64,000 bases of DNA from Candidatus Aenigmatarchaeota archaeon (GTDB lineage Archaea; Aenigmatarchaeota; Aenigmatarchaeia; GW2011-AR5). Below, one piece after another: positions 11,576-46,148 of this stretch. Both the position numbers and the translations under genes were made by a program. The first letter of the stretch is position 1; each line of letters starts with the position of its first letter. Location of the stretch: positions 39,312 through 103,311 of the forward strand of contig JACPAG010000003.1 of the NCBI GenBank assembly GCA_016180945.1, in the 5' to 3' direction. The notes under the pieces are model-generated. The model did no database searches, was not told the DNA's origin, and was given only the letters and a program-made list of their open reading frames with translations.

Positions 11576-11669
11576 TACAAGCGATACCACCAGTCTCGGA
11601 CTGGTGGTTCGTGGTGTAAAAAACTTTGTCGGTAATATACAATGATGCCACCGGTCTATTGACCGGTGG
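11576..11669 (+). repeat. R1 dispersed repeat, copy 1
   Basis: Shared 56-nt core (hairpin CCACCAGTCTCGGACTGGTGG) followed by its own 3' hairpin CCACCGGTC-TATT-GACCGGTGG. Starts 49 nt after the cutA stop. Confidence 0.7.
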
Positions 11670-11995
11670 AGACAACCAAAAATTAAAAGCGCCATTTCTA
11701 CCTCGGCATAATTATGCCGCCTTGCCAATTCGCCGAGCGTTGTTCTTTTTTCCGCTGTATGGTTTACAAAAAGTCGTTTCTGAACTTCAGTAACAGCTAT
11801 TAGCGGTTCGTCACGAAGTTGTCTGTAAGCACCCAAAGCAGGACCGAGAACTAGCCCTGCAGCAGCTTCCGTGACCTGCTGGTAAACATCTGGGCGCCTT
11901 TGAAAAGGTCTTGACCCGGTTACCCTTATCCTTTGAGGCACTCTCGCGTGCCTTGCAGGTTTCGGCATTTAAAAGATAATGCCGAAGAGATTTTA
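11650..11995 (-). ncRNA. Candidate structured ncRNA, possibly SRP 7S RNA
   Basis: About 350 nt with no credible ORF, elevated GC and many perfect hairpins (CGGCATAATTATGCCG, TTCGGCATT...AATGCCGAA). The minus strand carries CCAGCAGGUCACGGAAGCUGCUGCAGG, which resembles the SRP helix-8 apical sequence (GGAA tetraloop). Confidence 0.3.
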
Positions 11996-12044
11996 AGCTC
12001 GATTCCTGCAAAAGATTCTTAAGCACCGCAAATAGAGGAATGTT

Positions 12045-12638
12045 ATGGCCGGCAAATTAATCGCATTCGAAGGATTAGACGGAAGCGGCATCACCACTCA
12101 GGCCACGCTGCTAAGAAATTATTTTCTGACCCAGGGAAAAGACGTCATCCTCACCAAGGAGCCTACTGACGGCCTGATAGGCGGCATAATAAAGGCCTGC
12201 CTGCGCAAAGAGTGGAAAACAAATCCGCTTGCGCTGCAGCTTCTCATGGTCGCCGACCGCTCGCATCATTTGGCGACGGAGATAGAGCCGGCATTGAAAA
12301 AAAACATGACCGTCATATCCGACCGGTATATTTTGTCAACGCTTGCCTACGGCAGTCCGGACGTAGATATGAAGACGCTGCAGCAGCTCAATAACGGATT
12401 CAGAAAACCCAATCTCACGATTATGATAGACACGCATCCCCGTGTATGTCTGGAGCGGATAAAAAAGTCACGGCATCACATAGAGCTGTTTGAAGATGAA
12501 CAAAAGTTCAACCAGACAAGGAACAATTACCTTTCGCTGAAGAACCATTTCCCGAACACGCACGTCATAGACGGCAACCGCACGCCGGAAGAGGTCCTGA
12601 GGGACGTGAAAAGGATTGTGGAAAAGGCAGAGATGTGA
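12045..12638 (+). CDS. tmk: Thymidylate kinase
   Basis: IAFEGLDGSGITTQ P-loop and a DR(Y/H) motif. Confidence 0.85.
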   Translation: MAGKLIAFEGLDGSGITTQATLLRNYFLTQGKDVILTKEPTDGLIGGIIKACLRKEWKTNPLALQLLMVADRSHHLATEIEPALKKNMTVISDRYILSTLAYGSPDVDMKTLQQLNNGFRKPNLTIMIDTHPRVCLERIKKSRHHIELFEDEQKFNQTRNNYLSLKNHFPNTHVIDGNRTPEEVLRDVKRIVEKAEM

Positions 12639-12834
12639 TTTACCTTTTCCGTCTAAAAAACGAATTCTCAAGTTGTTCTAATTCTTTTATAGGTTTGTAA
12701 TCGAAGAAAGAAACAAAAATATCCTTAGTTTTCTCATTTTCTAAAATTATCTGAAATCTTTTATTTTTGTTATATACACAGGAAAGGGTCAGAAAATGGT
12801 GGTGCCATGGCTCTCTTCTTCTGGAGTAACCCTC

Positions 12835-12960
12835 GGCAAGTTCTATAATCTTTTCTATGCTTACATTCGGATAGAACGGCCAGACTTTAGAAGTCTGGGA
12901 TGATATAGCGTTCTATCCGATGTCACGCCAGCCTCTTTAGAGGCTGGCCGTTGACTTCCT
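12835..12960. repeat. Structured intergenic element with nested hairpins between convergent tmk and scpB
   Basis: 14-bp stem CATTCGGATAGAACG/CGTTCTATCCGATG enclosing CCAGACTT-TAGA-AGTCTGG, followed by CCAGCCTCT-TTAG-AGGCTGG. Confidence 0.4.
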
Positions 12961-12966
12961 TCATGT

Positions 12967-13467
12967 CTACCCCTTCTCTTCTTCTTTTACCAGCTCTTTT
13001 ATCTTCTCTTTACCAGCTCCAAAATACTCTTCAAAATGCGGCGTTGTTCTGAGCAGCTTTGTACGGGATTTCTTCTCGCTTTTTACAAGCCCGCGCGTCT
13101 CCAGTTCTTTTACGTATTCATACGTTCTGTTGCCGATAACCTTGACTATGTCCGCCTGGCTTATAGGCTCGTGATATGCGATTATAGACAGCACCCTTAA
13201 CAATCCCCTTGAAAGGTCGGCGTGCGGCGTGAGGTGCGAAACCTTTTCAACATGCTCCGGTTTTACGATAAGCTTGTAGCCGCCCCCTTCTGAAAGCTTT
13301 ATCCCGGAATCGTCGCCGGAATATTTATTCCTTAGTTGGGAAAGCAGTTTTTCTATCTCTTCCGTCCTTGTTTTCATGATTTTCTGCAGCTCTTCCATTG
13401 TCAACGGCCCGCTTGTCGTGAACAGAACAGCTTCGAGAAGCGCTAACTTGCTCGGCATAGTGACCAA
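12967..13467 (-). CDS. scpB: Segregation and condensation protein B (ScpB)
   Basis: LLEAVLFTTSGPLT start and a winged-helix pattern. Confidence 0.8.
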   Translation of the reverse strand: MVTMPSKLALLEAVLFTTSGPLTMEELQKIMKTRTEEIEKLLSQLRNKYSGDDSGIKLSEGGGYKLIVKPEHVEKVSHLTPHADLSRGLLRVLSIIAYHEPISQADIVKVIGNRTYEYVKELETRGLVKSEKKSRTKLLRTTPHFEEYFGAGKEKIKELVKEEEKG

Positions 13468-13590
13468 TACTATTGTGACATGACAGTATATATAAATTGT
13501 AGAGAAAAAGAACAGGAAACAGGCTAATGTTTAGCCTTTACCTACCTCATAATTACATATTCAATTAGAACCAAATCCATCAGCATTTAC

Positions 13591-14259
13591 TTATACCACC
13601 CTCACCGTAATGTCCTTGAAAAATTCCTCCTGCTCGCATACAACCTTTCCGCGGTTTGAGAGGTGCAGCAGCGGCAGGAATATTTCCACTATTTCCTTCC
13701 TTTTCCAGACCGGAACTATATCCGAAAATTTCATGAAAGTGCCGTGCCTTAGTATCTGGTCAAAGACATTTTTTATCCTTATCTCTATATCCTCCTCCGG
13801 TTCTATCAGCCCTTCCACCCTTCTTCTCATGCGCAGCTTCTTCGTTTCTTTTCTTTCCTTGAATTCGAATGCCTTGTTCAGCGCGGATACAAGTTCTGTC
13901 AGTGTCACCTTCCTTGTCGGCTTTCTTTCCAGCGGAGGCGATAGTGACGGAATATCCTCTATGTTTATCGGCGGTGGCGATTCCCCTTTTATTTCTTCCT
14001 TCGGTTCTTCTTCCTCCAGCAGCAGCTCGCATTTCATCCTCAGCAGTATGGCGGCTATCAGTACGAACCTGGCCGGCACCCGGAAATCAAACGTCTTCAG
14101 CCGTTTCAGGTAAAACATGAAAGAATCCGTCAGCTTTATGATATCCACGACAGCCGGGTCCATTCCCTCTTCTACAACTATGTTGGTCAGCACCTCCTGC
14201 CAGTCGCTTCCCGCGACAATCGTCTGTATCAGCTTGTTTTCATCTATCATAGCCATCAC
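13591..14259 (-). CDS. scpA: Segregation and condensation protein A (ScpA kleisin)
   Basis: Typical ScpA N-terminus ...LTDSFMFYLKRLK... Confidence 0.8.
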   Translation of the reverse strand: MMAMIDENKLIQTIVAGSDWQEVLTNIVVEEGMDPAVVDIIKLTDSFMFYLKRLKTFDFRVPARFVLIAAILLRMKCELLLEEEEPKEEIKGESPPPINIEDIPSLSPPLERKPTRKVTLTELVSALNKAFEFKERKETKKLRMRRRVEGLIEPEEDIEIRIKNVFDQILRHGTFMKFSDIVPVWKRKEIVEIFLPLLHLSNRGKVVCEQEEFFKDITVRVV

Positions 14260-14456
14260 TAGTTTCTCGAAAATCCGAAGGTATAAACAGGCGTAAATAA
14301 ATCCTGCAATCTGGATTTATTCTCGAATACACACCTTACAAATTCTACAAATGTATCCCGATAAGTTTCAGCAGACGAGAAAACCTCTCCTAATTCTGGA
14401 GATGTCATCCAGAAATATCTTCCATCATGTCTTACCTCTATCTTTAATTTATTCAT
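14259..14456 (-). CDS. Small protein between smc and scpA; HicB-like/UPF0150-like fold suspected
   Basis: 65 aa, MNKLKIEVRHDGRYFWMTSPELGEV.... The stop overlaps the scpA start. Confidence 0.35.
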   Translation of the reverse strand: MNKLKIEVRHDGRYFWMTSPELGEVFSSAETYRDTFVEFVRCVFENKSRLQDLFTPVYTFGFSRN

Positions 14457-14458
14457 AG

Positions 14459-17022: not shown

Positions 17023-17103
17023 ATAATCCCCTAGTTACTATTGATTACTATATGTAACATTATGTAATTAGTATATAAAGATGTGAGAAACAGATGAAAT
17101 TTA

Positions 17104-19101: not shown

Positions 19102-19103
19102 TG

Positions 19104-19367: not shown

Positions 19368-19379
19368 TATTAATGGCTC

Positions 19380-25215: not shown

Positions 25216-26919
25216 ATGTATTTCGGCCGTGTTCTGGGATTAGGCTTGACGCCGTCAGGCAAGCCCGCTGCAGTTTACGCCGTCTCCGGTCGTTCCGCAC
25301 TTAGCAAGGCAAGAAAGGCAGTTATCCATAAAGATGCCGTCACAATAGAGCCAACAGTTTCGCTGGAAGGCCAGCAGGATGTTAAGGATCTGCTATTTTA
25401 CAACGCAATAAGAATTCACAACAGCAGATTAGTCTTAGGTAATGGCGTCCATGTTGATAGCATTTTGGACAGTTCTATAAAAAGCGTCCTGGATAAGTTC
25501 GGTCCTGAAAATGATGTATACAAAACGCCGAGAATAGCAGGCGTCATAGACGGCAATAAATTTTCTGTTGGGATGATAAAAGAAGATAACAGCGCATTTG
25601 AAACGGACATAAATCCTTCATCCGGTTTTTATGCAATCTCCACTTATTCTGGCGAAGCCGAACCAAAAGTTCACGATTTCAAAAATTTATCAGATATAGC
25701 AATACATCTTAATTTTTCCGGCGAGACAGCGCAGGAATTGGCAGACAGCGCATTCAAATGGCTTGACGCAAATCTGGCCGTATGTACAGCAGCAGCCGTA
25801 TTTGACGGAAGTTGGAAGATAGCCGTGCATAACAAGACCACCCATAATAAGGGAGCTTATAGTGAGCAAAAAATAGGAAATCATCCGGAGAAAATAGTTA
25901 TTACAGAGCATTTTGGCGATGGCGCAAAAACACGCGTATTCGAAAAGGTCTCGGACCTGAGATACGCAACCAATCCCGGCCAGGCAGCAGCTTTTTACGG
26001 GCACGATTCGCTTCTGGGCAGAATAGCAATAATCAAATCCGGTAAAGGTGGTTTGTCCCAGACGAACATAGAAGACGTATTCTACGCCTTGGACACGCTG
26101 AAATATTTTTCCGTCACCTCTTGCATCGTGATGAAGCACGAAAATCCCAGCGGTTTTGCGAAAACCGCTTCCGGTCCTCTAGTAGATGTTTACAAAAAAG
26201 CCCGCGATTGCGACTATCAGGCAGCCTTCGGCGGCGTTGTTGCATTTAACTCATCGGTCGATAAAGAAACGGCAGAGGAGATAGCAAAAACTTTTGTGGA
26301 GGTCGTAGTCGCTCCTGATTATGATTCTGATGCCATTGAAATTTTGAACAAAAGCAAAAACATCCGGGTCCTCAAATTTGACGACGCTCATCTTAAATCA
26401 CTGCCAAAATTTACAGGCGATAAATTTTCTGCGGAGTTCAGGATTCTGGGAAATGCGCTTCTCAGGTACGACCCGTATTTGACGTCTATCAAATCTGCAG
26501 AAAATCTCACGAAATATGTCGTTTCCGGAAATCCTTCTGCGAAAGAACTGGACGACCTGCTGACCGCATGGTACGTGTGCATAGGCGTCCGTTCCAATGC
26601 TATCGTCCTCGTCAAAAACAGCCATACAATCGGCATCGGGACAGGCCAGCAGGACAGGATAACGGCTATGAAACTTGCCATATGGAAAAACAAGGAACTG
26701 CATAATGACGATGAATTTTCTGCGGAAGGCGCATCGCTCGCCAGTGACGGCTTTTTCCCTTTCACAGACTCGATAGAATTTGCAGCAAAGAGCGGCGTAA
26801 AATATATCGTTCTGCCAGTGGGTGGTCAGAAATGGGATGAAGTGGTTAGAAAAGCCCAGGACTTGGGTATAGTCCTTGTCGGCTTACCCCCGGAAGAAAG
26901 GTGTTTTTCTCACCATTAA
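25216..26919 (+). CDS. purO-purH: Fusion of archaeal-type IMP cyclohydrolase PurO (N-terminal) and an AICAR transformylase domain (PurH C-terminal)
   Basis: N-terminus MYFGRVLGLG...VSGRS matches the PurO start pattern (MYLGRI.AVG...VSSRSF). C-terminus SDGFFPFTDSIEFAAKSGVKYIVLPVGG matches the PurH AICARFT tail (SDAFFPF.D...QPGGS). Confidence 0.65.
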   Translation: MYFGRVLGLGLTPSGKPAAVYAVSGRSALSKARKAVIHKDAVTIEPTVSLEGQQDVKDLLFYNAIRIHNSRLVLGNGVHVDSILDSSIKSVLDKFGPENDVYKTPRIAGVIDGNKFSVGMIKEDNSAFETDINPSSGFYAISTYSGEAEPKVHDFKNLSDIAIHLNFSGETAQELADSAFKWLDANLAVCTAAAVFDGSWKIAVHNKTTHNKGAYSEQKIGNHPEKIVITEHFGDGAKTRVFEKVSDLRYATNPGQAAAFYGHDSLLGRIAIIKSGKGGLSQTNIEDVFYALDTLKYFSVTSCIVMKHENPSGFAKTASGPLVDVYKKARDCDYQAAFGGVVAFNSSVDKETAEEIAKTFVEVVVAPDYDSDAIEILNKSKNIRVLKFDDAHLKSLPKFTGDKFSAEFRILGNALLRYDPYLTSIKSAENLTKYVVSGNPSAKELDDLLTAWYVCIGVRSNAIVLVKNSHTIGIGTGQQDRITAMKLAIWKNKELHNDDEFSAEGASLASDGFFPFTDSIEFAAKSGVKYIVLPVGGQKWDEVVRKAQDLGIVLVGLPPEERCFSHH

Positions 26920-26956
26920 ACCCTTTGTTTAAAAGCTTTTTTGTTTTACTATTCCA

Positions 26957-27040
26957 TACAAGCGAACCACCAGTTTCGGACTGGTGGTTCGTGGTGTAAA
27001 AAACTTTGTCGATGCAAAGGTTTTTCACAAAGGAAAACAG
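26957..27040 (+). repeat. R1 dispersed repeat, copy 2
   Basis: Core with 2 substitutions. Lies between the purO-purH stop and the purE 5' end. Confidence 0.7.
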
Positions 27041-27044
27041 GTGA

Positions 27045-27443
27045 TTTGTCATTACTGACGTTTTAATCATTGCAGCTTCTAAATCAGATGAAGAGATAGT
27101 CAGGAAAGTAACTGGAATTCTGGACAGCTACAGGGTTGTCTACAAAGTCGAATACGCCTCTGCGCACCGGGAGCCCGAAAGGGTAACGACGATAGTGAAG
27201 AATTCTGATGCAAAAGTCTTCGTAGCCATAGCCGGCTTGGCAGCCGCCCTGCCGGGCTTTGTCGCCTCAATGACAAACAAGCCTGTCATAGGCGTTCCTG
27301 TTTCTGCAAAACTCGGCGGTCTTGACGCATTGCTTTCGGTTGTCCAGATGCCAAAAGGAATTCCTGTCGCAGCAGTCGGCATAGATAACGGCGAAAACGC
27401 CGGCCATCTGGCAAAAAGGATTCTGGATGCAGGCAGGGCATAG
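27045..27443 (+). CDS. purE: N5-carboxyaminoimidazole ribonucleotide mutase PurE; no canonical in-frame start codon
   Basis: ...[11 protein letters not shown]...[10 protein letters not shown]...[15 protein letters not shown]...VIGVPV...[12 protein letters not shown]... is unambiguous PurE. Upstream in-frame stop at 27042-27044. No ATG/GTG/TTG occurs before the conserved N-terminus. Confidence 0.65.
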
Positions 27444-30023: not shown

Positions 30024-30700
30024 AGACAAAGATTCCTATAGCTTCAGCCACAAAGCGAATGATAATTGAAACAATGACTGATGTCTCTGCTTTACCTGAG
30101 ATGATTATGGTGGCACATTCAACAAAATCTTCTATAAGAATCAAAATCCTAGCACTACGTAACCCCCTGTCGATAGAAGAAATAAAGGAAAAAAGTGCAT
30201 CCATAAAAGAAAAACTGTTTTCTATGGAAGTATTCAGGAATTCAAAAGTAGTTTTTTTCTATGTATCCGTTGGGAGTGAGGTACAGACACATGATATGAT
30301 AAAAGAAATATTGGATAAAAAAAAGGTTGCTGTTCCGATGCCGGAAAAAGCAAACAAAACCCTGTCGGCTTCGGAGTTACTTAATTTTAACGAATTAGAA
30401 CCGGGTTCTTTCTCCATACTAGAACCAAAAAAAGAATTTGTAAGAATAGTTAACCCAAAAGATTTGGATTTGGTCGTTGTTCCCGGGATAGCATTTGACA
30501 AAAAAGGGAACAGAATCGGTCACGGCCGCGGTTATTTTGACAGGTTTCTGGAAAATATATCAGTGCCAAAAATTGCCCTTGCATATGAAATGCAGATTGT
30601 AGATAACATACCGGCAGACAAAAATGATGTCGGTGTGGATTTCATTGTAACGGAAAAAAGAATTATCAGATGCGAAAAAGAAGATAAAAGAGGAAATTGA
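30020..30700 (+). CDS. 5-formyltetrahydrofolate cyclo-ligase (MTHFS)
   Basis: VPGIAFDKKGNRIGHGRGYFDRFL is the family signature. Confidence 0.7.
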   Translation: MKTKIPIASATKRMIIETMTDVSALPEMIMVAHSTKSSIRIKILALRNPLSIEEIKEKSASIKEKLFSMEVFRNSKVVFFYVSVGSEVQTHDMIKEILDKKKVAVPMPEKANKTLSASELLNFNELEPGSFSILEPKKEFVRIVNPKDLDLVVVPGIAFDKKGNRIGHGRGYFDRFLENISVPKIALAYEMQIVDNIPADKNDVGVDFIVTEKRIIRCEKEDKRGN

Positions 30701-30794
30701 TACAAGCGATACCACCAGTCTCGGACTGGTGGTTCGTGGTGTAAAAAACTTTGTCGTTAATATCAAATGATGCAAGAAGGACTTGCGAGTCCTT
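30701..30794 (+). repeat. R1 dispersed repeat, copy 3 (94 nt identical to copy 4)
   Basis: Begins the base after the MTHFS TGA. Contains a second hairpin AAGGAC-TTGCGA-GTCCTT. Confidence 0.75.
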
Positions 30795-31003
30795 CCGATG
30801 GAGACAAAGATTTTTCACATGAATCAAAAATTATCTAAGAAAGATAAACAATTTCTACTAAATATAACAATTTCCAGTAGACAATTTTTGATAACAATTT
30901 AGCAGATATCAAAAATCTTAATGGGCAATGCCAAAAATATCTTTTTGAATTATACCCAACCTTAAAAAATGAAAAATTTTACCATTAATGCAACCTAATC
31001 TAC

Positions 31004-33952: not shown

Positions 33953-35368
33953 TTACTTGTGCCTGTTAACAATCTGCTGGTAATGTCTTGCATCGTCACT
34001 TACAATATTGCTTTCGGCCAGTTTGACAAGCTCTTGGCCGAATGGCGTCGGGTATTCCCCGGTCAGGCATGCTGTGCACAGTCCCTTGAGTTGCAGCGCA
34101 TCCCGCAGCCCTTCCATAGTCTGGTATGTGAGTGAGTCAGCATTTATCGACTTGCGTATATCGTCAATCGTTTTCTCATTGGCAATCAGCTCCCCCCTTG
34201 TCGCAAAGTCGATGCCGTAGTAGCATGGCGATATCAGCGGCGGACACGTCGAGGCGAAGTGAACTTCTTTTGCCCCGTGTTTTCTTAGTATGTCGACAAT
34301 GCGCTGCGCCGTTATGCCGCGCACGATGCTGTCATCAACTATGAGGACGCTTTTGCCTTTTATCATATGCTCGTTAGCCGTATATTTTATGTAAGTGTAT
34401 GTGTGCCTGGTTTTCTGGTCCTTCATTATGAAGGTCCTGCTGTCTGCGTACCTGTTTCTGATAAGCGCTTCTATATACGGCACCCCCAGAACTTCGGCCA
34501 TTTTTATTGCAGCCGGTCTCGATGTTTCAGGCACGGCAGCAACAAAATCCGGCACGATGCCCTTTTTTATTATTTCTTTTGCCAGATTCCCGCCAAGCTT
34601 CATTCTGGCTTCGTAGACGTTTTTCCCGGCAAATGTTGATGATGGGTGGGCAAAATATACAAATTCAAACATGCAGTGTGCATGCTTTTTTTCTACCAGT
34701 ATGTCGGCTTCTACCCCGTCCTTGCTTATTATGACAAGCTCGCCCGGCTCAACCTCCCTTACAAATTCCATGTCAGGCAGATGCATTGAGATAGGTTCAG
34801 ACGACGCCATAAAATGGCTTTGGGAACCGCCGAGAAACAGCGGCCTTAAACCGTTCGGGTCCCGGAAAACGAGCAGCTTGTCGTTGAGAATGCACGTTAT
34901 AGAATAAGAGCCGTCAACGGTATTCATGAACTGCCTAATCGTGCTTTGAATATCGCCGTTATTGTCATCGAGCATCCTTGCAATAAGATACGTGATGAAT
35001 TCCGTGTCCGTAACAAAATCCTTCTTGTTTACCATGTCGGTGATTTTGTAAACGTTTGTGATGTTGCCATTGTGAGTCAGACATATTTGCCCGTAGCGTG
35101 ACTGCGCAACAAAAGGCTGCGAAACCTTTTCCATGTCGTCGTCAGCGCTTCCGGATGTCGGGTAGCGCGTAGAACCTATGCAGACATCCGTATACTGGTT
35201 TTCTATCTGCATGTTGCCAATACTGCCGGTGCATTTCTGTACCTTTATGCCGTCATTGGAAAGCCATGCAATGCCCGTCGCATCCTGTCCTCTGTGCGTC
35301 AAAAGTTGCAGGGGAAGCTGTATCTGCCTCAGGTCGACATGACCAAAAATGCCCACCACGCCGCACAT
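33953..35368 (-). CDS. purF: Amidophosphoribosyltransferase PurF
   Basis: MCGVVGI N-terminal nucleophile and a PRTase domain. Confidence 0.85.
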   Translation of the reverse strand: MCGVVGIFGHVDLRQIQLPLQLLTHRGQDATGIAWLSNDGIKVQKCTGSIGNMQIENQYTDVCIGSTRYPTSGSADDDMEKVSQPFVAQSRYGQICLTHNGNITNVYKITDMVNKKDFVTDTEFITYLIARMLDDNNGDIQSTIRQFMNTVDGSYSITCILNDKLLVFRDPNGLRPLFLGGSQSHFMASSEPISMHLPDMEFVREVEPGELVIISKDGVEADILVEKKHAHCMFEFVYFAHPSSTFAGKNVYEARMKLGGNLAKEIIKKGIVPDFVAAVPETSRPAAIKMAEVLGVPYIEALIRNRYADSRTFIMKDQKTRHTYTYIKYTANEHMIKGKSVLIVDDSIVRGITAQRIVDILRKHGAKEVHFASTCPPLISPCYYGIDFATRGELIANEKTIDDIRKSINADSLTYQTMEGLRDALQLKGLCTACLTGEYPTPFGQELVKLAESNIVSDDARHYQQIVNRHK

Positions 35369-35448
35369 GTGAAAAACCTTTGTATCGACAATGTTGCTCG
35401 TATTGAATACTTACCGATTCAATTTAAAAAGGTTTCTTTAAATAAAGC

Positions 35449-36219: not shown

Positions 36220-36224
36220 AATCT

Positions 36225-39060: not shown

Positions 39061-39072
39061 AAAAATCCTCGT

Positions 39073-40631: not shown

Positions 40632-40689
40632 GCTTTAACAATTCCGTGAAAGAATTTATAGTTAACCAAGGAAACAAATAGGGTATTAC

Positions 40690-40865
40690 TTCCTTGGTTT
40701 ACTACACGCAGAAAACAAAGTTTTCTGGTGCACCAACTCGAGGAAAGCAAAGCTTTCCTGAGTCTCCAGAAACCTCTGTTTCTGAGAGAAAAGCTTTGCT
40801 TTTTGAGTGTATGTAAAACCAGAAATATTATATGCTTATTCTTTTCTGGTTTCACTATAAAAACG
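40690..40865 (-). repeat. R2 composite palindromic repeat, inverted copy
   Basis: Its reverse complement is near-identical to 52297-52540 across three blocks: TTTATAGTGAAACCAGAAAAGAAT...TTTCTGGTTTTACATACAC, then GGAGACTCAGGAAAGCTTTGC, then TTTCCTCGAGTTGGTGCACCAGAAAACTTTGTTTTCTGCGTGTAG. Confidence 0.7.
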
Positions 40866-40868
40866 AAT

Positions 40869-41807
40869 TTAATCTGGATTTGGATTAAATACCACATTTT
40901 CGGTATTATTTCTAAATGCATTCTCCATTAACACCTGTTCCCCAAGCTTGTCATAGCTTGTTTTTTCAAAGAAGGAAACAGCATCGTCAAATCCTTCTAT
41001 TGTATTGTTTTTTATTGTAGGGAAGCCGCTGCCGACAATTATCCCTCCCCACCCTGCTTTGTAACCCCCCGGATTCTTGAATCTTGGGCTGGGGCCAAAC
41101 CGGTTATTGATTATAGTCGGTGAGCTTCTTAGTATGTCTACGACTTCATGCCCGGAGTCATGAACCCAATTATTCTCGATTAAAATATCTGTGCTGTCGT
41201 GGATGCATATGGGGCACTCCCCGACATTGTGGAGTTCACTGTTCGTCAGGTTAGCCCCTGTCTTCAGGTCCATGGCCCTGTAATCCCTTATTTCCGCATA
41301 GGAGACGACCCCGCTTTCTATATGAAACGTGTTCCAGTCGTATCTTGTCGGCTCTGGGCTGCCTGACTTTATTAGGATTTTATTATCCCGAGTTCCGGTC
41401 GCATTCAGGAAACCTTCAATCCATATTGTAACATGGTTTTCTTCATCCCTGTAGGGCTCTCCTTGGTGAATATACTGGTCCCTTTCCTTGGCAATGCCCT
41501 TCTTCAGCCAGAAAGGAATTGTCATCAAATTGCCGGCGTCTTTATTGGCAGCAACCAGAACTTTTGTCCCCGGCTTTATTATCAGCTTGACACCCTTGGG
41601 CACTATGATGTCTCCGGCAACGCGAATCTCGCCTGACCAGACCTCATCCGAAGTTATGTAGCCGAGCCTTTCCGTATCAGCCATCTCATTTACGCTGTCC
41701 GAAGCTTTGGGGTATACCGCATCAAATGCAACCTTTCCGACGGCCGCTGCAACAGCAATAAAAACAACAGCAAAAACGGCACGGAAAATCTTTTTCCCGA
41801 CTTTCAT
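40869..41807 (-). CDS. Secreted or membrane-anchored protein with right-handed beta-helix (pectate-lyase-like) repeats
   Basis: N-terminal signal anchor and repeated GxNxxI/NN motifs. Confidence 0.45.
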   Translation of the reverse strand: MKVGKKIFRAVFAVVFIAVAAAVGKVAFDAVYPKASDSVNEMADTERLGYITSDEVWSGEIRVAGDIIVPKGVKLIIKPGTKVLVAANKDAGNLMTIPFWLKKGIAKERDQYIHQGEPYRDEENHVTIWIEGFLNATGTRDNKILIKSGSPEPTRYDWNTFHIESGVVSYAEIRDYRAMDLKTGANLTNSELHNVGECPICIHDSTDILIENNWVHDSGHEVVDILRSSPTIINNRFGPSPRFKNPGGYKAGWGGIIVGSGFPTIKNNTIEGFDDAVSFFEKTSYDKLGEQVLMENAFRNNTENVVFNPNPD

Positions 41808-41880
41808 ATTTTTAACATAGTGCCCGTCCTTATTTGAAGCTTTATAAACATCATTTTAAAAATATGCCACTGCAAATAAC

Positions 41881-42048
41881 CTTATGCTTAAAAAAGAGCT
41901 TTTGGACATCCTCGCCTGCCCCAAATGCAAGGGAGACATAGAATACGACAAAAAGAAGAACAAGCTCCTGTGCCGCAAATGCCGCCTTAAATACAGCGTT
42001 CTTGAAGGCGACATCCCGGACATGCTGATAGAAGACGCGGAGAAGTTT
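41881..42048 (+). CDS. Trm112-like small zinc-ribbon protein, 55 aa; not in the ORF track; coordinates +/-3
   Basis: Translation is MLKKELLDILACPKCKGDIEYDKKKNKLLCRKCRLKYSVLEGDIPDML. The stop overlaps the next ATG (TGATG). Confidence 0.5.
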
Positions 42049-42389
42049 TGATGCCTTTTATTCCTGGCTTCTTAAGAGGACGTCGAGGAAATTATTCCAC
42101 TCCTCAGGAGCCTAAGACAATAGGTGTAGAAATGGGTATAGTACTAGTTACTGCCGATGGTCTCGAATCACCTCCTTATTTCTTCTGGGCCAATTGGAAT
42201 TATTCGGCAAGTGGCAAAGTAGTCGTGAGAGGCAAAGAATATCCATTACAAAGAAATGTCGGAATTCCTGTTGATTTAGACCCCCGTGCCCCTGAAGTTA
42301 CTCTTGTATTGACAGACGGAAATGGAGGAGTATTTCGTAAAACTAGGTTATACGATCCGGACTCCCCTGACCACTTAAAAGACGCCTAA
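42048..42389 (+). CDS. Hypothetical protein (orphan-like, AT-rich codon usage)
   Basis: 113-aa ORF coupled to the Trm112-like gene. Confidence 0.35.
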   Translation: MMPFIPGFLRGRRGNYSTPQEPKTIGVEMGIVLVTADGLESPPYFFWANWNYSASGKVVVRGKEYPLQRNVGIPVDLDPRAPEVTLVLTDGNGGVFRKTRLYDPDSPDHLKDA

Positions 42390-42604
42390 TTTATTCCTTG
42401 CGCCAGTTTTAATATTTCTGATTATAAGTAATTTTTCAGTAAGGGAAATCTACAAAGAGCGAAGCTCTTTGAGATGCCAAAGGATTTCTTAATCCTTTGA
42501 GCATGAGTATGAGATAGAGAGAAACCAATTCATAATGGAAGTAGGGTTGATAAGGAATAAAAGGGAATTGGGATGATAAGGGAAAACCGTAGGTTTGCCC
42601 TTAT

Positions 42605-42731
42605 GCTGAGATGGCGGAGCTTGGTCCAACGCGCAAGCCTGGAACGGCCCTTTTCTGCGGAAAAGCGCCGGCGGAAAAACGGCAAGCTTGTATGCCTCGT
42701 GCATGCGGGAGTTCAAATCTCCCTCTCAGCG
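42605..42731 (+). tRNA. tRNA-Ser(GGA) with a ~40-nt intron at the canonical 37/38 position (about 42645-42684)
   Basis: Acceptor stem GCTGAGA/TCTCAGC is perfect. U8, a 3-bp D stem, anticodon stem CAAGC/GCTTG, loop CU-GGA-A, a 16-nt variable arm (ATGC-CTCGT-GCAT), T arm GGGAG-TTCAAAT-CTCCC and discriminator G. Confidence 0.6.
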
Positions 42732-42843
42732 CTGACATGGATTGTAATTTTCTGTATAGAGTGTTGATTAGAATTAAGGCTTACTTGCAGAAAGTCAAAG
42801 CTGAAAAGGATATATATTTAATCACCCATCAATAAAGTTACCT

Positions 42844-44235
42844 ATGCGTCCTGTGCTTGCGAATCTGGGGTTTGTTCTGCAGATTGGCGGGTTCTTCATA
42901 ACATTGCCTGTCGCAGTTGCTTTTTTCTACAACGAAACCCAGCCGCTGATTGCGTTTTTTATAACAGGTTTCGCGCTTTTTATACTGGGTTTTTTATTGA
43001 ACGCGTTCTCCGAAAGGAAGGAAATGGACATAAAGTCATCTTCTATTCTAATCACGGCGACATTCTTCCTTTTAGGGCTTTTCGGTTCTATCCCGTATTT
43101 CTATATTAACATGTTTAATGACGCGGATATTTTCGCGCGATTTACAAATAACTATTTTGAGAGCATATCCGGCTACACGACAACCGGCTTCAGCCTGTTA
43201 ACGAATATAGATTCCCTTCCCAAATCAATAGTATTTTACCGCGGTCTGACGCAGTTCATAGGAGGTTTGGGGATAGTTTTTATACTGCTGGCCTTTTTCT
43301 ACAAAGGCGACACCATAGACTATCTTAGGCGGGTAATGGGGTTGTTAAAGGTCACGGATAGCATAAAAAAATCATTTTTATACGTGCTGGCTATTTACAG
43401 CTTCTATATAGCCGTATTCACAGCCGCTCTGTATTTCCTCGGCTTTACAGACCTTGTAAATACGGTATCCGTGGTTTTCGGTTCCCTCATGACAGGGGGA
43501 CTGTCGCCCGTAAGCGACTTTTCCAGATTTTTGGTATTTCCGGCAAATATAATAATAATTCTTAGCATGTTCTTGGGAGCGACAACATTCGCAATACACT
43601 TCAGGCTTCTTACAGGAAAATTCAGAAAGGCAATGACAAGCGAGCTTATCGCTTTTATTTTGATAATCTTAGGGTTTACAGCACTCCTGACATTCTACTA
43701 TAACATCGAAGCCTCCTTATCCCTTTTCACTGTTGTAAGCGCGTCTTCTACCACCGGCTATAGTACAGTGAACATTTCGGCGTTTAGTGAAACGCTTAAG
43801 ATAATCTTTGTATTTCTGATGATAATAGGAGGTACCAGCGTTTCGACAGCGGGCGGCATGAAAATCTTGAGGCTGTTGGTATACCTGAAAGCTGTGCCGT
43901 GGGCTGTAAGATGGGCTGTATACGGAAAAGAGCAAAAATTTGTGTTTGACGAAAGGGAATTTACGCCGTCAGAAATAATACTCAGCTTGTTGGTAACGCT
44001 GATGGCATTGACCACTATAGTAGTTTCTGCAGTTATCTTTACGGCCGCCGGCTTTCCTTTCATAAACTCCTTGTTTGAATCCGCCTCTGCGTTCGCAACT
44101 GCCGGCTTGTCAACAGGAATAGTGTCTCTGTCTCTGGCCCCCGCCTTGAAATGGCTGCTGGCTCTTGTAATGATATTGGGCAGAATAGAGATAATACCTT
44201 TCCTGATTATATTCACAAGAAAGAAGGCGACTTAA
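42844..44235 (+). CDS. trkH: TrkH/KtrB-family potassium transporter
   Basis: Repeated pore-loop motifs GYTTTGFS, TTGYST, GGMK, AGLSTG. Confidence 0.75.
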   Translation: MRPVLANLGFVLQIGGFFITLPVAVAFFYNETQPLIAFFITGFALFILGFLLNAFSERKEMDIKSSSILITATFFLLGLFGSIPYFYINMFNDADIFARFTNNYFESISGYTTTGFSLLTNIDSLPKSIVFYRGLTQFIGGLGIVFILLAFFYKGDTIDYLRRVMGLLKVTDSIKKSFLYVLAIYSFYIAVFTAALYFLGFTDLVNTVSVVFGSLMTGGLSPVSDFSRFLVFPANIIIILSMFLGATTFAIHFRLLTGKFRKAMTSELIAFILIILGFTALLTFYYNIEASLSLFTVVSASSTTGYSTVNISAFSETLKIIFVFLMIIGGTSVSTAGGMKILRLLVYLKAVPWAVRWAVYGKEQKFVFDEREFTPSEIILSLLVTLMALTTIVVSAVIFTAAGFPFINSLFESASAFATAGLSTGIVSLSLAPALKWLLALVMILGRIEIIPFLIIFTRKKAT

Positions 44236-44327
44236 ATCTGGCGTATGTAAATATCTAAGTTATCTTTATTTGTGGTAATGTGTATAGTAATGCAGGAATC
44301 CAAAAACAGTGGTTATCAAGAAATAAT

Positions 44328-44359
44328 ATGGCAATCGACTTTTGCCGGAGCAAAAGGGG
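44328..44359 (+). promoter_or_regulatory. Leader motif copy (ATGGCAATCGAC-TTTTGC-CGGA-GCAAAA-GGGG) ending at the CBS gene ATG
   Basis: Exact motif. Confidence 0.6.
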
Positions 44360-44797
44360 ATGTTTGGCGGGATAATAAAAAATTACAAGCTGGCAGAAAT
44401 TGCGGAGAAATGCGACTCCATAAGCGCGAAAGCTACCGTTCTGGACTTCGTAAATCTCGCGCGGCAGAAAAACGCAGAGGTCATGCCTGTTGTTGATGAG
44501 GATGAAAGAGTAATCGGGATAGTAACGGAAAAAGACCTTCTCAAGCTGGTTAAGATAGAAGGACCGGCATCCAACTATCCTATTATAGAGAAAAGCCTGC
44601 CTAAAGAAGTGGTTAACAGGCCCATAACATCTATAATGACACAAAATCCTGTTCTGCTGAAAGAAACGTCATCTCTTGAAGACGCCATGAACCTGATCCT
44701 GAACCATGACTTCAGGCGAGTTATCGTAGTCGATTCGCAGAACCGCCTTGTCGGCAAGCTGAGGATTGCCGACATTATACATCAGCTTTCTAAGTGA
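44360..44797 (+). CDS. CBS-domain pair protein
   Basis: Two CBS motifs. Start set at the ATG following GGGG. Confidence 0.7.
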   Translation: MFGGIIKNYKLAEIAEKCDSISAKATVLDFVNLARQKNAEVMPVVDEDERVIGIVTEKDLLKLVKIEGPASNYPIIEKSLPKEVVNRPITSIMTQNPVLLKETSSLEDAMNLILNHDFRRVIVVDSQNRLVGKLRIADIIHQLSK

Positions 44798-44825
44798 GTA
44801 CAAAATGCAAATAAAAATAGATAAT

Positions 44826-44893
44826 ATGGCATACGACTATGGCGCTTATAGCGACAGAGGGGTATTTGGCGCTTATAGCGACAGAGGGGTATT
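44826..44893 (+). promoter_or_regulatory. Leader motif copy with an internally duplicated tail
   Basis: ATGGCATACGAC-TATGGCGCTTATAGCGACAGAGGGGTATT, then GGCGCTTATAGCGACAGAGGGGTATT repeated, then ATG. Confidence 0.6.
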
Positions 44894-46045
44894 ATGACAG
44901 ACCTGTTTCTTGGAATAGCAATCCTTTTGTTTTCTGCCAAATTATTAGGCGAACTTTTCGAGCGGCTTAACCTTTCTTCGCTGGTAGGGGAAATTTTTGC
45001 AGGCATAATAGTCGGCCCTGTTCTCGGGCTTGTAATGCCGTCAGAAGACTTGCGCCTGGTCACGAATTTCGGTATTCTGCTGCTGCTGTTTTTGATAGGG
45101 CTTTCTACAAAGTTTGACGAGGTGAAGAGCAACGTTTATGTCGGAAGCGCCCTTGCAATAGGCGGCTGCACCCTTGCGTTTCTGGGAGGCTTTTTAGTCG
45201 GCTATCTGGTTTTCAACAGCGTTCAGGTAGGCATAATACTCGGCGTTGCAGTCATATCAACAAGCACCGCCATAACGTTGCGTTCGCTCACTGACATAGG
45301 CGCCTTCCAGTCGAAGCCTTACAAGCTGGCACTGGCGATAGACATAGCAGACGAGGTCATAGCTATAATGGCGCTGGCTTTGCTGACAAGCTATTTCTCT
45401 TTTGGGGCTGTTGAGATATGGAAGGTTGTGACATTGTTCCTAGCAGTATTGGGCTTCTTCTTTTTCATCCTCACCGCCGGCTCAAAGATTTTAGGAAAGT
45501 TCCTGTCATTGTTCCAGACAATGCGCGACGAGCAGATCGTGCTTTCCATACCGCTTGTCATCCTTTTCTTTATAGCATTTGTCAGCGAGCATGTCGGTGT
45601 CGCCGCCGTAACAGGCGCGTTTCTTGCAGGAGTCGCAATAAACAAATCCCCCCTCGTCGAGCCTGTAATTGTGCCCAAAGTCAAGGCAATGTCTTACGGA
45701 TTTTTCGTCCCGATGTTTTTCGCCTATTCGGCCGTTCTTTTGGACGTGAAATCAGTCATAACGTTCTTCCCGGCCATACTAGCACTAATAGCAACCGTTT
45801 CTTTAGGAAAAGTTCTTGGGTGCGGATTTCTGGCCAAATATTTCGGTTATAACGGTTTTGACCAGAAACTCATAGGCATAGGCATGATACCGCACGGCGA
45901 ATATAGCATCATCATCGCCCAGCTGGCCCTGCTCGGCGGCTTCATAAAGCCGGAGCTGTACACAATCGTAATAGCGTTTGTTATCATAAGCATCGTCATT
46001 ACGCCCCTGCTGCTGAAACTGGTAAACGGCAGGAATAGGTTTTAA
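44894..46045 (+). CDS. Cation:proton antiporter (CPA/Kef/NapA-type)
   Basis: 383 aa with ~12 TM helices and the CPA motif GEIFAGIIVGP. Confidence 0.7.
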   Translation: MTDLFLGIAILLFSAKLLGELFERLNLSSLVGEIFAGIIVGPVLGLVMPSEDLRLVTNFGILLLLFLIGLSTKFDEVKSNVYVGSALAIGGCTLAFLGGFLVGYLVFNSVQVGIILGVAVISTSTAITLRSLTDIGAFQSKPYKLALAIDIADEVIAIMALALLTSYFSFGAVEIWKVVTLFLAVLGFFFFILTAGSKILGKFLSLFQTMRDEQIVLSIPLVILFFIAFVSEHVGVAAVTGAFLAGVAINKSPLVEPVIVPKVKAMSYGFFVPMFFAYSAVLLDVKSVITFFPAILALIATVSLGKVLGCGFLAKYFGYNGFDQKLIGIGMIPHGEYSIIIAQLALLGGFIKPELYTIVIAFVIISIVITPLLLKLVNGRNRF

Positions 46046-46054
46046 ATATATTGA

Positions 46055-46148
46055 TACAAGCGATACCACCAGTCTCGGACTGGTGGTTCGTGGTGTAAAA
46101 AACTTTGTCGTTAATATCAAATGATGCAAGAAGGACTTGCGAGTCCTT
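46055..46148 (+). repeat. R1 dispersed repeat, copy 4 (identical to copy 3 over ~94 nt)
   Basis: Starts 10 nt after the antiporter stop. Confidence 0.75.

What the first reader, a model, noticed from the sequence alone, without database searches (positions are those of the whole stretch)
11576..46148. R1 family: four oriented copies of a 56-95-nt repeat, each starting 0-50 nt after a plus-strand stop codon
The core is TACAAGCGATACCACCAGTCTCGGACTGGTGGTTCGTGGTGTAAAAAACTTTGTCG, with the perfect hairpin CCACCAGTC-TCGGA-GACTGGTGG. It follows cutA, purO-purH, MTHFS and the antiporter, always in the same orientation. Each copy is followed by a second hairpin: CCACCGGTC..GACCGGTGG in copy 1, AAGGAC-TTGCGA-GTCCTT in copies 3 and 4. 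Copies 3 and 4 are identical over about 94 nt. Copy 2 differs by two bases. This points to recent mobility or gene conversion. There is no T tract on the sense strand, so this is not a classical archaeal terminator. Candidate roles are a 3'-UTR stability element, a small RNA gene or a MITE. Reading through the copies on the opposite strand creates the spurious ORFs beginning MHHLILTTKFFTPRTTSPRLVVSLV.
Basis: seen in the sequence. Interest (0 to 1): 0.65.

Follow-up and report, generated by a model that had tools for sequence, protein, structure and literature searches.

The report
Miniature hairpin-ended transposon copies (PATE-like)
The four repeats are real. They are most likely copies of a roughly 110-117-base non-coding mobile element of the IS200/IS605 "peel-and-paste" type in a DPANN archaeon, which is an ordinary kind of selfish DNA and not a new RNA gene.

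Summary
The R1 repeats exist as described: four plus-strand copies, none expected by chance. The window is from a Candidatus Aenigmarchaeota MAG (locus tags HYT72_...). A complete copy is 110-117 nt and runs from ACAAGCGATA to TTTTTCAC. It has no terminal inverted repeats and no target duplication. It carries two near-identical hairpins on the same strand, one near each end (GATA-CCACCAGTC..GACTGGTGG and GATG-CCACCGGTC..GACCGGTGG). Every copy sits 3' of TTGAT, TTCAT or TCCAT, and complete copies end in TTCAC. These match the target and end motifs published for ISDra2 and ISGst elements. The four bases before each hairpin pair with those motifs by the IS608 guide rule. Two copies lie inside the 3' ends of genes on the opposite strand; removing one in silico restores a complete winged-helix match. 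A related genome lacks R1 at the sites that could be compared and has two 32-nt right-end fragments elsewhere. No Rfam family matches. Best reading: a PATE-like non-autonomous IS200/IS605 element (confidence 0.55). No transposase gene and no true empty site were found. A secondary role as a terminator or 3'-UTR element is untested.

The parts
11572..11576 (+). Copy 1 target-adjacent motif (TAM-like) TTCAT, immediately 5' of the element
   Evidence: It equals the ISGst5 TAM reported in PMC10055086.
11577..11675 (+). R1 copy 1 (99 nt). The left end is intact, with left hairpin 11587-11607 and right hairpin variant A 11648-11669. The right end is truncated after GGAGACAA, so the TTCAC end is lost.
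11573..11968 (-). 131-aa ORF (HYT72_02975). Residues 1-98 belong to a real gene with 140-142-aa homologs. The last 33 residues and the stop codon are read from R1 copy 1.
11530..11577 (-). Displaced native C-terminus (YEGDLRRILNAYNGR*) of that same gene, now on the other side of R1 copy 1. This places copy 1 inside a coding region. About 26 codons plus the R1 right end were then deleted.
   Evidence: MAFFT places it on the C-termini of P0243 and P0244. It is too short for a BLASTP score, so this is suggestive only.
26953..26957 (+). Copy 2 TAM-like TCCAT
26958..27028 (+). R1 copy 2, the 71-nt short form. It has the left hairpin (26967-26987) and the right-end module ..CAAAGGTTTTTCAC, but no inner or right hairpin. 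It lies between purO-purH and purE.
30697..30701 (+). Copy 3 TAM-like TTGAT. It overlaps the TGA stop codon of the 5-FTHF cyclo-ligase gene.
   Evidence: TTGAT is the ISDra2 target (PMC8612924).
30702..30818 (+). R1 copy 3, 117 nt with complete ends. It has left hairpin 30712-30732, inner hairpin variant B 30776-30795, and end motif TTCAC at 30814-30818.
46051..46055 (+). Copy 4 TAM-like TTGAT
46056..46148 (+). R1 copy 4 as it stands in this assembly: identical to copy 3, then truncated after the variant-B hairpin. Read-level contigs from other samples show a variant-A hairpin, a complete TTCAC end and 73 extra bases here.
35368..35395 (-). Right-end fragment (AACATTGTCGATACAAAGGTTTTTCAC) abutting the purF start codon
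   Evidence: (I13). It has no stable fold.
9390..9403 (-). 14-nt right-end match GGTTTTTCACAAAG, 27 nt after the stop of the minus-strand gene 9430..9921. It may be a relic or a chance match.

Best explanation
R1 is a family of transposase-less miniature elements derived from an IS200/IS605-type insertion sequence, that is, a PATE (palindrome-associated transposable element).

Anatomy. A complete copy is 110-117 nt. On one strand (the 'top' strand) it has:
- a left end ACAAGCGATA followed by hairpin CCACCAGTC-TCG-GACTGGTGG;
- a 38-nt spacer;
- a right-end hairpin preceded by GATG (CCACCGGTC-TATT-GACCGGTGG);
- a 17-nt tail ending in TTCAC.

Inferred mechanism. A Y1 HUH transposase (TnpA) encoded elsewhere in the genome would bind the two hairpins on single-stranded DNA. 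It would cut 3' of the flanking TT(G/C)AT and 3' of the terminal TTCAC, release a single-stranded circle, and paste it 3' of another TT(G/C)AT, without duplicating the target.

Why copies sit where they do. Copies survive only where they do little harm: just after stop codons, in operon spacers, or in the last about 14 codons of convergent genes. After insertion they decay by deletion (copy 1, copy 4, and the short copy 2) and exchange inner modules (hairpin variant A versus B).

What is shown: the anatomy, the flanking motifs, the gene disruptions, the non-orthologous distribution, and the polymorphism.
What is inferred: the involvement of TnpA and the transposition itself.

The stable hairpins and the T5/T6 tracts may incidentally terminate or stabilise neighbouring transcripts. 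That was not tested.
For: 1. No terminal inverted repeats: 3-4 of 20 matching positions between the ends. No target duplication at the three complete-ended copies, copies 2 and 3 and L005.

2. There are two near-terminal hairpins on the same strand. They differ by one compensated base pair (A-T versus G-C), and similarity extends into the 5' flank as CAANNGAT(A/G). This is the defining anatomy of PATEs and IS605-type ends (PMC3119063).

3. The left flanks are TTGAT (three copies), TTCAT and TCCAT. Every complete right end is TTCAC. Published motifs are: ISDra2 target TTGAT, ISGst5 TAM TTCAT, and ISGst2 TAM TTTAT with TEM TTCAC, where TAM and TEM differ at positions 3 and 5.

4. The IS608 guide rule fits. 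In IS608 the guide is the 4 nt 5' of the hairpin foot, with GL AAAG/CL TTAC and GR GAAT/CR TCAA, pairing G1:C2, G2:C1 and G4:C4. In R1 the right guide GATG pairs with TCAC at all three positions. The left guide GATA pairs with TCAT at all three positions; the other observed targets, CCAT and TGAT, have one mismatch each. The A/G difference between the two guides matches the T/C difference between target and end motif.

5. Insertion into genes. Removing L005:1558-1667 in silico extends orf75 from 75 to 88 aa. The longer protein gains a full-length match to HTH_24 (residues 43-88 against profile 3-48 of 48, E 0.0034, below the gathering cut-off) that the truncated form lacks. At copy 1, the 140-aa-family gene is split. 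Residues 1-98 are on one side, the C-terminal YEGDLRRILNAYNGR* is on the other, and an R1-encoded tail replaces the middle.

6. Distribution. A genome with 73% identity in PurO-PurH (L066) has no R1 after purO-purH. It has two 32-nt right-end units, 94-97% identical to R1, after the primase and Cbf5 genes; the window has no R1 after those genes.

7. R1 is multi-copy and rare. All read-level contigs break inside R1. One further full copy lies on an unrelated metagenome contig (L005). Six-frame peptides of R1 hit only this MAG among 5.8 billion proteins.

8. All full copies share one strand orientation.
Against: - No tnpA or tnpB gene, and no full-length IS with these ends, was found in the 64-kb window or in any fetched locus. 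The rest of the genome could not be read.
- No true empty site was seen. All four sites are filled in every sample examined. The one contig ending ..CCATAAA fits either an excised allele or a single-base variant.
- Three of five targets (TTGAT) have a G:G mismatch to the predicted guide.
- The base after TTCAC is A in 8 of 8 cases, which the model does not predict.
- Guide position 3 is T, not the A that IS608 inserts into the protein.
- The right-end fragments (L066 twice, upstream of purF, 9390) lack hairpins and do not fold. Yet they are 94-97% conserved between species and always follow a co-oriented gene. That hints at a sequence-level function, or at another mode of spread.
- The A6-CTTTGTC...GACAAAG-T5 pairing is kept even in the short form. 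The transposon model does not require it.
- Only about 7 copies are known, so the motif statistics are thin. My rough estimate for the guide match, after allowing for alternative frames, is about 0.02.
Confidence: 0.55

Rival explanations
1. R1 is a host-functional 3'-end module. It would act as a bidirectional terminator and/or an mRNA-stabilising hairpin cassette placed after genes. Copies would stay alike through gene conversion, not transposition.
For: - All five full copies follow a co-oriented gene, and three of them sit between convergent genes.
- The pairing A6-CTTTGTC...GACAAAG-(A/G)T5 gives a T5 run after a stem on the + strand and a T6 run after the same stem on the - strand. It is kept in the short form, copy 2.
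- The folds are far more stable than shuffles, with z from -4.6 to -7.3.
- Other, non-repeated intergenic regions of this genome carry similar nested hairpins, for example 5092-5247.
- The right-end module is 94-97% conserved in a second species, again just after co-oriented genes.
- The inner hairpin exists in two unrelated sequences (variants A and B) at the same position.
Against: - Copy 1 and the L005 copy interrupt coding sequence and truncate real genes. A dedicated terminator would not be expected there.
- Copy 2 sits inside the purH-purE operon. A right-end fragment with its T5 run abuts the purF start codon.
- Near-100% nucleotide identity over 56-99 nt is not required for a hairpin terminator.
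- The TAM, TEM and guide grammar has no explanation in this model.
- The conserved right-end fragments do not fold.
- A consensus terminator scan does not flag any R1 copy.
- Orthologous sites in the relative lack R1.
Confidence: 0.2
2. R1 is a mobile or recombining small repeat of another, unknown type. Examples would be the enigmatic 'small mobile repeats' of haloarchaea, a REP/RAYT-type element, or a mosaic BIME-like element. It would not be mobilised by an IS200/IS605 TnpA.
For: - R1 is modular. The inner hairpin has variants A and B, a short form lacks it, and 32-nt right-end units occur alone.
- A variant-B-like hairpin occurs separately in the relative, at L066:5320-5345.
- The flank ATTG precedes both the full copies and the 32-nt units, in 5 of 7 cases.
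- No transposase was found.
- This genome has other hairpin-mosaic intergenic families.
Against: - REP pairs (REPINs) are inverted, whereas the R1 hairpins are direct.
- Haloarchaeal small mobile repeats have terminal inverted repeats, and R1 has none.
- The exact agreement with published TAM and TEM pentanucleotides and with the IS608 guide rule would then be coincidence.
Confidence: 0.15
3. R1 is a small non-coding RNA gene or cis-regulatory RNA, for example box C/D, H/ACA or another L7Ae-binding RNA, present in several copies.
For: The predicted structure is strong on both strands. A TAATAT box lies inside the element, about 10 nt before the inner hairpin. The inner hairpin is kept as a hairpin although its sequence differs between variants A and B.
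Against: - No Rfam family reaches threshold. In E-value mode the best hits are 12-20 bits against cut-offs of 43-70.
- By inspection there is no box C/D or K-turn arrangement at either hairpin base.
- The copies are truncated in different ways, and two disrupt genes.
- The two single-base hairpin variants disagree about which strand would be the RNA (C>T in copy 2; T>C in L005).
- The element is absent from orthologous sites in the relative.
Confidence: 0.07

Closest known systems
PATEs (palindrome-associated transposable elements) of Haloquadratum walsbyi and the PATE-like elements of Geobacillus stearothermophilus (PMC3119063; PMC10055086)
   Same: R1 is too short to encode a transposase. 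It has no terminal inverted repeats and no target duplication. It has near-terminal palindromes that resemble each other. Copies within a type are highly similar. Copies suffer core and terminal deletions, and very short terminal-only forms exist.
   Different: For R1 no parent IS605-type transposon is known. At 110-117 nt, R1 is small but not unprecedented: a 52-bp terminal-only PATE was reported in Haloquadratum walsbyi. The host is a DPANN archaeon (Aenigmarchaeota). One copy type has the right palindrome replaced by an unrelated hairpin.
ISDra2 (Deinococcus radiodurans) and ISGst2/ISGst5 (G. stearothermophilus), IS200/IS605 family
   Same: The target-adjacent pentanucleotide is TTGAT (ISDra2) or TTCAT (ISGst5), and the element-end motif is TTCAC (ISGst2). 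Target and end motifs differ at positions 3 and 5. Insertion is 3' of the target without duplication.
   Different: Those elements carry tnpA and/or tnpB or iscB and an omega/reRNA of about 150 nt. R1 carries no gene, and there is no evidence of a guide RNA. There is no detectable sequence similarity beyond the motifs.
IS608 (Helicobacter pylori), the mechanistic paradigm
   Same: A four-base guide lies 5' of each hairpin foot. It pairs with the cleavage tetranucleotide in the pattern G1:C2, G2:C1, G4:C4, and position 3 of the cleavage site is A. The left cleavage site lies in the flank, and the right one lies inside the element, 3' of the hairpin.
   Different: The spacings differ: 10 nt versus 19 nt on the left, and 13 nt versus 10 nt on the right. 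Guide position 3 is T in R1 and A in IS608. The hairpin sequences are unrelated.
Bacterial REP/BIME elements with RAYT transposases
   Same: Both are extragenic hairpin repeats after genes, with a mosaic and modular make-up, probably mobilised by an HUH Y1 enzyme. Effects on termination and mRNA stability are known for REPs.
   Different: REP doublets are inverted, whereas the R1 hairpins are direct. No RAYT gene has been seen. The copy number is unknown and probably low.

Membership tests
PATE / non-autonomous IS200-IS605 element | No terminal inverted repeats | tested here: met
   The first 20 nt against the reverse complement of the last 20 nt match at 3-4 of 20 positions in copies 2 and 3 and in L005.
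PATE / non-autonomous IS200-IS605 element | No target-site duplication | tested here: met
   The flanks of the complete copies share no repeat..TCCAT|..|AAAGG..TTGAT|..|ATGAA..TTGAT|..|AAAAC.
PATE / non-autonomous IS200-IS605 element | Near-terminal palindromes at both ends, similar to each other, on the same strand | tested here: met
   GATA-CCACCAGTC-TCG-GACTGGTGG is 10 nt from the left end. GATG-CCACCGGTC-TATT-GACCGGTGG is 17 nt from the right end. This holds for variant A (copy 1, L005, L019). Variant B (copies 3 and 4) and the short form (copy 2) lack the right palindrome.
PATE / non-autonomous IS200-IS605 element | Too short to encode a transposase | tested here: met
   Copies are 71-117 nt. 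The only ORFs through them are read-through artefacts.
PATE / non-autonomous IS200-IS605 element | Inserted 3' of a conserved 4-5-nt target, with the element ending in a related motif | tested here: met
   The left flanks are TTGAT (three copies), TTCAT and TCCAT. The right end is TTCAC in copies 2 and 3, L005, L019/L020, both L066 units and the purF fragment. Only five independent left flanks are available.
PATE / non-autonomous IS200-IS605 element | Guide tetranucleotide 5' of each hairpin complementary to its cleavage site (IS608 rule) | tested here: met
   GATG against TCAC pairs at 3 of 3 positions. GATA against TCAT pairs at 3 of 3, and against CCAT or TGAT at 2 of 3. Only one of the possible frames fits; my rough chance estimate is about 0.02.
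PATE / non-autonomous IS200-IS605 element | A cognate autonomous element (tnpA, Y1 HUH) with matching ends in the same genome or lineage | tested here: inconclusive
   None was found in the 64-kb window or in about 60 kb of related loci. The remaining two thirds of the 183-kb contig and the rest of the MAG could not be fetched.
PATE / non-autonomous IS200-IS605 element | Strain-specific insertions, or empty sites with precise junctions | tested here: inconclusive
   All four sites are filled in all samples. Indirect support comes from the in-silico excision that restores a winged-helix match in L005, from the split gene at copy 1, and from different sites in the relative.
PATE / non-autonomous IS200-IS605 element | Top strand on the lagging-strand template (orientation tied to replication) | not testable with these tools
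   The origin is unknown. GC skew in the window follows gene strand. All five full copies share one orientation.
Classical MITE | Terminal inverted repeats and a target-site duplication | tested here: not met
REP/REPIN-RAYT | Palindromes in inverted pairs, with a RAYT gene flanked by REPs | tested here: not met
   The two hairpins are in direct orientation. No Y1 transposase gene was seen. The RAYT part is limited by the sequence available.
Box C/D, H/ACA or other curated RNA family | Match to the family covariance model | tested here: not met
   The Rfam 15 gathering scan of the window finds only a tRNA. E-value scans of two full copies give 12-20 bits against cut-offs of 43-70.
Intrinsic or oligo-T transcription terminator | T run at the transcript 3' end (after a stem for the bacterial type) and mapped 3' ends | tested here: inconclusive
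   The T5 (+) and T6 (-) runs flank the long stem, but the consensus scan flags no R1 copy. There are no transcript data.

The most novel reading that the evidence does not exclude
R1 may be a transposon-derived cassette that the host, or the element itself, has put to use. The 20-nt right-end module GGAGACAAAG(G/A)TTTTTCAC survives without any hairpin, and the 32-nt units that carry it are 94-97% identical in two species whose orthologous PurO-PurH proteins are only 73% identical. It always lies just after a co-oriented gene. Together with the A6/T5-flanked stem, it could act as a sequence-specific, bidirectional 3'-end or termination signal in DPANN archaea. Alternatively, it could be the minimal recognition site of an RNA-guided TnpB-type partner. 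On either reading, a natural 110-nt element would carry a fully readable target, guide and end code.
Probability: 0.12. Interest if true: 0.55.

Novelty: new member of a known kind. Interest (0 to 1): 0.33.

Why it matters
The result mainly matters for annotation and assembly.
- R1 creates false ORFs and one chimeric gene product (HYT72_02975).
- It breaks short-read contigs.
- It probably caused either a mis-join or a real strain deletion upstream of the L10e gene in the deposited MAG.

Biologically, it documents single-strand "peel-and-paste" type elements in a small DPANN genome. It also shows that the target, guide and end code worked out for IS608, ISDra2 and ISGst can be read directly from a 110-nt archaeal element. 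If the cognate TnpA or TnpB is found, the family would be a compact natural substrate for studying these enzymes. It is not a new class of element.

Tried and rejected
- An exact-pattern scan of 185,579 GTDB species genomes for the left hairpin found 0 hits.
- A protein-based scan of the same collection with PurO-PurH found no relatives.
- The metagenome scan gave one true copy (L005). The other two hits were chance matches, one to 23S rRNA and one to an unrelated hairpin.
- The viral scan for the hairpin returned 36 bacterial-phage Rho-independent terminators with the same stem and no other similarity. The viral scan for the right end found 0 hits.
- blastn against plasmids and phages found nothing relevant.
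- K-turn and box C/D arrangements were looked for by eye at both hairpin bases and not found.
- An origin-recognition-box idea was dropped because the copies are dispersed.
- An attachment-site or genomic-island idea arose from the similar spacings of 15,380 and 15,354 nt. It was dropped because both intervals hold syntenic housekeeping genes.
- A purine-regulon operator idea arose from the fragment upstream of purF. It was dropped because other copies flank unrelated genes.
- A small protein encoded in R1 was rejected: there is no frame conserved between variants.
- Searches for empty sites through nine flanking-gene look-ups gave only contigs that break inside R1.
- L068-L070, relatives of the L005 neighbourhood, contain no R1.

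Full report
**Observation**

The 56-nt core TACAAGCGATACCACCAGTCTCGGACTGGTGGTTCGTGGTGTAAAAAACTTTGTCG occurs exactly at 11576, 30701 and 46055. At 26957 it occurs with one deleted T and one C>T change. All copies are on the + strand, and shuffles gave no matches. Copies 3 and 4 are identical over 99 nt. The hairpin is CCACCAGTC-TCG-GACTGGTGG. The window is a housekeeping region holding ribosomal proteins, SMC-ScpAB, primase, GINS and a full purine pathway. It comes from an NCBI MAG named Candidatus Aenigmarchaeota archaeon, with locus tags HYT72_02975 and HYT72_03055 on a 182,911-bp contig.

**True extent and anatomy**

I aligned the four copies with a fifth full copy on an unrelated metagenome contig (L005) and with read-level contigs (L019/L020). 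The alignment shows that the element is longer than reported. Complete copies run from ACAAGCGATA... to ...GACAAAG(A/G)TTTTTCAC. Copy 3 is 30702-30818 (117 nt) and the L005 copy is 110 nt. A sense-strand T5 run therefore exists at the right end.

The parts, in order, are:
- left hairpin H1;
- TCGTGGTGTAAAAAACTTTGTCG;
- TTAATATCAAATGATG;
- an inner hairpin, either variant A (CCACCGGTC-TATT-GACCGGTGG, in copy 1, L005 and L019) or variant B (GAAGGACT-TGCG-AGTCCTTC, in copies 3 and 4);
- (G)GAGACAAAG(A/G)TTTTTCAC.

Copy 2 is a 71-nt short form without the inner module. Copy 1 is cut off after GGAGACAA, and copy 4 after the variant-B hairpin. A6-CTTTGTC pairs with GACAAAG-(A/G)T5 around the inner module. 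Both strands fold far better than shuffles, with z from -4.6 to -7.3. Two right-end fragments lie on the minus strand. One (35368-35395) abuts the purF start codon, and the other is a 14-nt match at 9390-9403.

**What it is not**

Rfam 15 finds only a tRNA in the window at gathering thresholds. Permissive scans of two full copies return only noise. I saw no K-turn or box C/D arrangement. There are no terminal inverted repeats (3-4 of 20 positions match) and no target duplication, so R1 is not a classical MITE. A consensus terminator scan flags none of the copies.

The same hairpin stem turns up in 36 gut-phage contigs as an ordinary bacterial terminator with A and T tracts. Nothing else is shared there, so this is convergence. 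Nothing similar exists in the plasmid or phage collections.

**The IS200/IS605 grammar**

H1 and variant-A H3 are the same hairpin apart from one compensated base pair. Both are on the same strand, and both are preceded by CAANNGAT(A/G).

The sequence immediately left of the element is TTGAT in copy 3, copy 4 and L005, TTCAT in copy 1, and TCCAT in copy 2. Every complete right end is TTCAC. The literature held in the library gives these comparisons:
- ISDra2 inserts 3' of TTGAT without target duplication (PMC8612924).
- ISGst5 has TAM TTCAT.
- ISGst2 has TAM TTTAT and TEM TTCAC, with TAM and TEM differing at positions 3 and 5 (PMC10055086).

For IS608, the cleavage tetranucleotides (CL TTAC, CR TCAA) are read by the four bases 5' of each hairpin foot (GL AAAG, GR GAAT). 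Pairs include A+16:T-3 and A+17:T-4 (PMC3201880 and PMC5934647). That amounts to G1:C2, G2:C1 and G4:C4. I applied the same rule to R1:
- Right guide GATG against TCAC gives three Watson-Crick pairs.
- Left guide GATA against TCAT (copy 1) gives three pairs.
- The other observed targets, CCAT and TGAT, have one mismatch each.
- The only difference between the two guides (A versus G) matches the only constant difference between target and end motif (T versus C).

Allowing for the alternative frames I could have chosen, I put the chance of this at roughly 0.02. That is my own estimate, not a tool result.

R1 also fits the published definition of PATEs: no inverted terminal repeats, palindromes near the termini that resemble each other, no target duplication, too short to code, and prone to core or terminal deletions down to 52-bp forms (PMC3119063).

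**Evidence that copies are insertions**

1. L005. The minus-strand orf75 stops at a TGA supplied by the element's TTTTTCAC. Removing 1558-1667 in silico extends it in frame by SIVKELAQEGRVK*. The 88-aa product gains a full-length HTH_24 match that spans the junction (residues 43-88 against profile 3-48 of 48, E 0.0034), plus FeoC and DUF2250 hits. All of these are below the curated cut-offs, and the 75-aa form lacks them.

2. Copy 1. The 131-aa minus-strand ORF has 140-142-aa homologs that align only to residues 1-98. Its last 33 residues are read from R1. The 48 bases between the cutA stop and R1 encode YEGDLRRILNAYNGR*, which MAFFT places on the homologs' C-termini (..YRxDLxxIxxxYxxx*). These bases end 2 nt from the cutA stop. 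BLASTP cannot score so short a piece, so this point is only suggestive. On this reading, copy 1 sits inside a former coding region. A later deletion then removed the R1 right end and about 26 codons. The "0-50 nt after a plus-strand stop codon" pattern is therefore partly a by-product of very tight convergent gene pairs.

3. A related genome. GCA_053537215.1 (L066) has 73% identity in PurO-PurH and the same gene order from geranylgeranyl reductase to purO-purH. It has no R1 after purO-purH, although the downstream gene there differs, so the site is not strictly orthologous. It does carry two 32-nt units, TATTG(A/G)CCGGTGGAGACAAAGGTTTTTCACA, 94-97% identical to the R1 right end, after the primase and Cbf5 genes. 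The window has no R1 after those genes.

4. Polymorphism at copy 4. Upstream of the L10e gene, read-level contigs from two samples show a variant-A hairpin, a complete TTCAC end and 73 further bases that the MAG lacks. Window copy 4 is therefore either a strain variant or an assembly error.

**Abundance**

All Logan contigs that reach R1 break inside it, as expected for a multi-copy repeat. All four sites are filled in every sample seen. Six-frame peptides of R1 retrieve only HYT72_02975 among 5.8 billion proteins. The left hairpin is absent from the GTDB species genomes. Together these show that the family is lineage-restricted and probably of modest copy number.

**Weak points**

- I found no transposase gene and no full-length parent element, but I could read only about a third of one contig.
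- There is no true empty site. One contig ends ..CCATAAA where the excised allele would read ..CCAT|AAAGG, but a single-base variant explains that equally well.
- The base after TTCAC is always A.
- Three of five targets mismatch the guide at one position.
- Guide position 3 is T, not A.
- The hairpin-less right-end fragments are oddly well conserved across species, do not fold, and are always just downstream of a co-oriented gene. The transposon model does not explain this. It keeps alive the idea that the right-end module, or the A6/T5-flanked stem, has a function of its own such as termination or 3'-end formation.

**Verdict**

R1 is real, and most probably a PATE-like, non-autonomous IS200/IS605-family element (confidence 0.55). 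A host terminator or 3'-UTR role (0.2) may coexist with this as a side effect. Another type of small mobile repeat is less likely (0.15), and an sRNA gene less likely still (0.07). The element is a new member of a known kind. Its practical importance is for annotation and assembly of this MAG.

Noticed in passing
window + strand: 146, 20197, 23110, 23448, 27519, 28540, 44329, 44827, 51912; window - strand: 50855, 50578, 48934; L066:5978: A 12-nt motif TGGC(A/T)(A/T)(T/A)CGACT is usually preceded by AATAATA. It is followed by a short hairpin, GGGGAT and then a start codon. It sits just upstream of at least 12 genes in the window, always co-oriented, and upstream of the L44e gene in the related genome. 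It looks like a shared promoter or 5'-leader module.
   Followed up: partly
window 40632-40868 (-), 52296-52540 (+); partial copies at 49154-49320 and 50419-50534: A hairpin mosaic of about 230 nt, beginning at a TATA-like TTTTATAGTGAA, is shared upstream of purM and of a CBS-domain gene, at 84-98% identity in blocks. No Rfam family matches it. It could be a common structured leader or regulatory region.
   Followed up: partly
window 27039-27053: purE has no ATG, GTG or TTG between the upstream in-frame stop and its conserved N-terminus ([13 protein letters not shown]). A strong Shine-Dalgarno AGGTGAT lies 5 nt before ATT at 27051, which suggests an ATT start codon.
   Followed up: no
window 42605-42731 (+): A 127-nt tRNA, presumably carrying an intron, is found by Rfam at 43.3 bits but missed by ARAGORN.
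   Followed up: no
window 46130-46160 compared with L019:1-110 and L020:1-110: The deposited MAG lacks the R1 right end and 73 nt that read-level assemblies from two samples show upstream of the L10e gene. The MAG also carries the variant-B hairpin where they carry variant A. This is either a mis-assembly through the repeat or a strain deletion or conversion.
   Followed up: partly
L030-L065 (IMG/VR contigs): Thirty-six viral contigs, mostly gut-phage-like, use the stem CCACC(A/G)GTC..GAC(C/T)GGTGG flanked by A and T tracts as a bidirectional bacterial-type terminator. The stem is the same as in R1, but the context is unrelated.
   Followed up: yes
window 8822-9035: A 106-108-nt unit is tandemly duplicated at 76% identity, spanning the 8690-8966 spacer and the start of ORF 8967-9347 (D4).
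   Followed up: no
window 5092-5247: A non-repeated intergenic region forms a long A/T-rich stem (GCTTTGTTTAAAAAG...CTTTTTAAACAAAGC) that encloses two GC-rich hairpins. This is the same nested architecture as R1, which suggests that such structures are common after genes in this genome.
   Followed up: no
P0242 (742 aa): A tandem-repeat ORF from elsewhere matches the R1-encoded peptide in 11 stretches at 34% identity. This is probably a chance similarity amplified by the repeats.
   Followed up: no
window 25216-26919: PurO (archaeal IMP cyclohydrolase) and the AICAR formyltransferase domain of PurH are fused in one 567-aa protein. Only two other proteins among the listed hits looked closely related, at 73% and 79% identity, and only the 73% one is full-length. 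A complete purine pathway is encoded in this DPANN genome.
   Followed up: no
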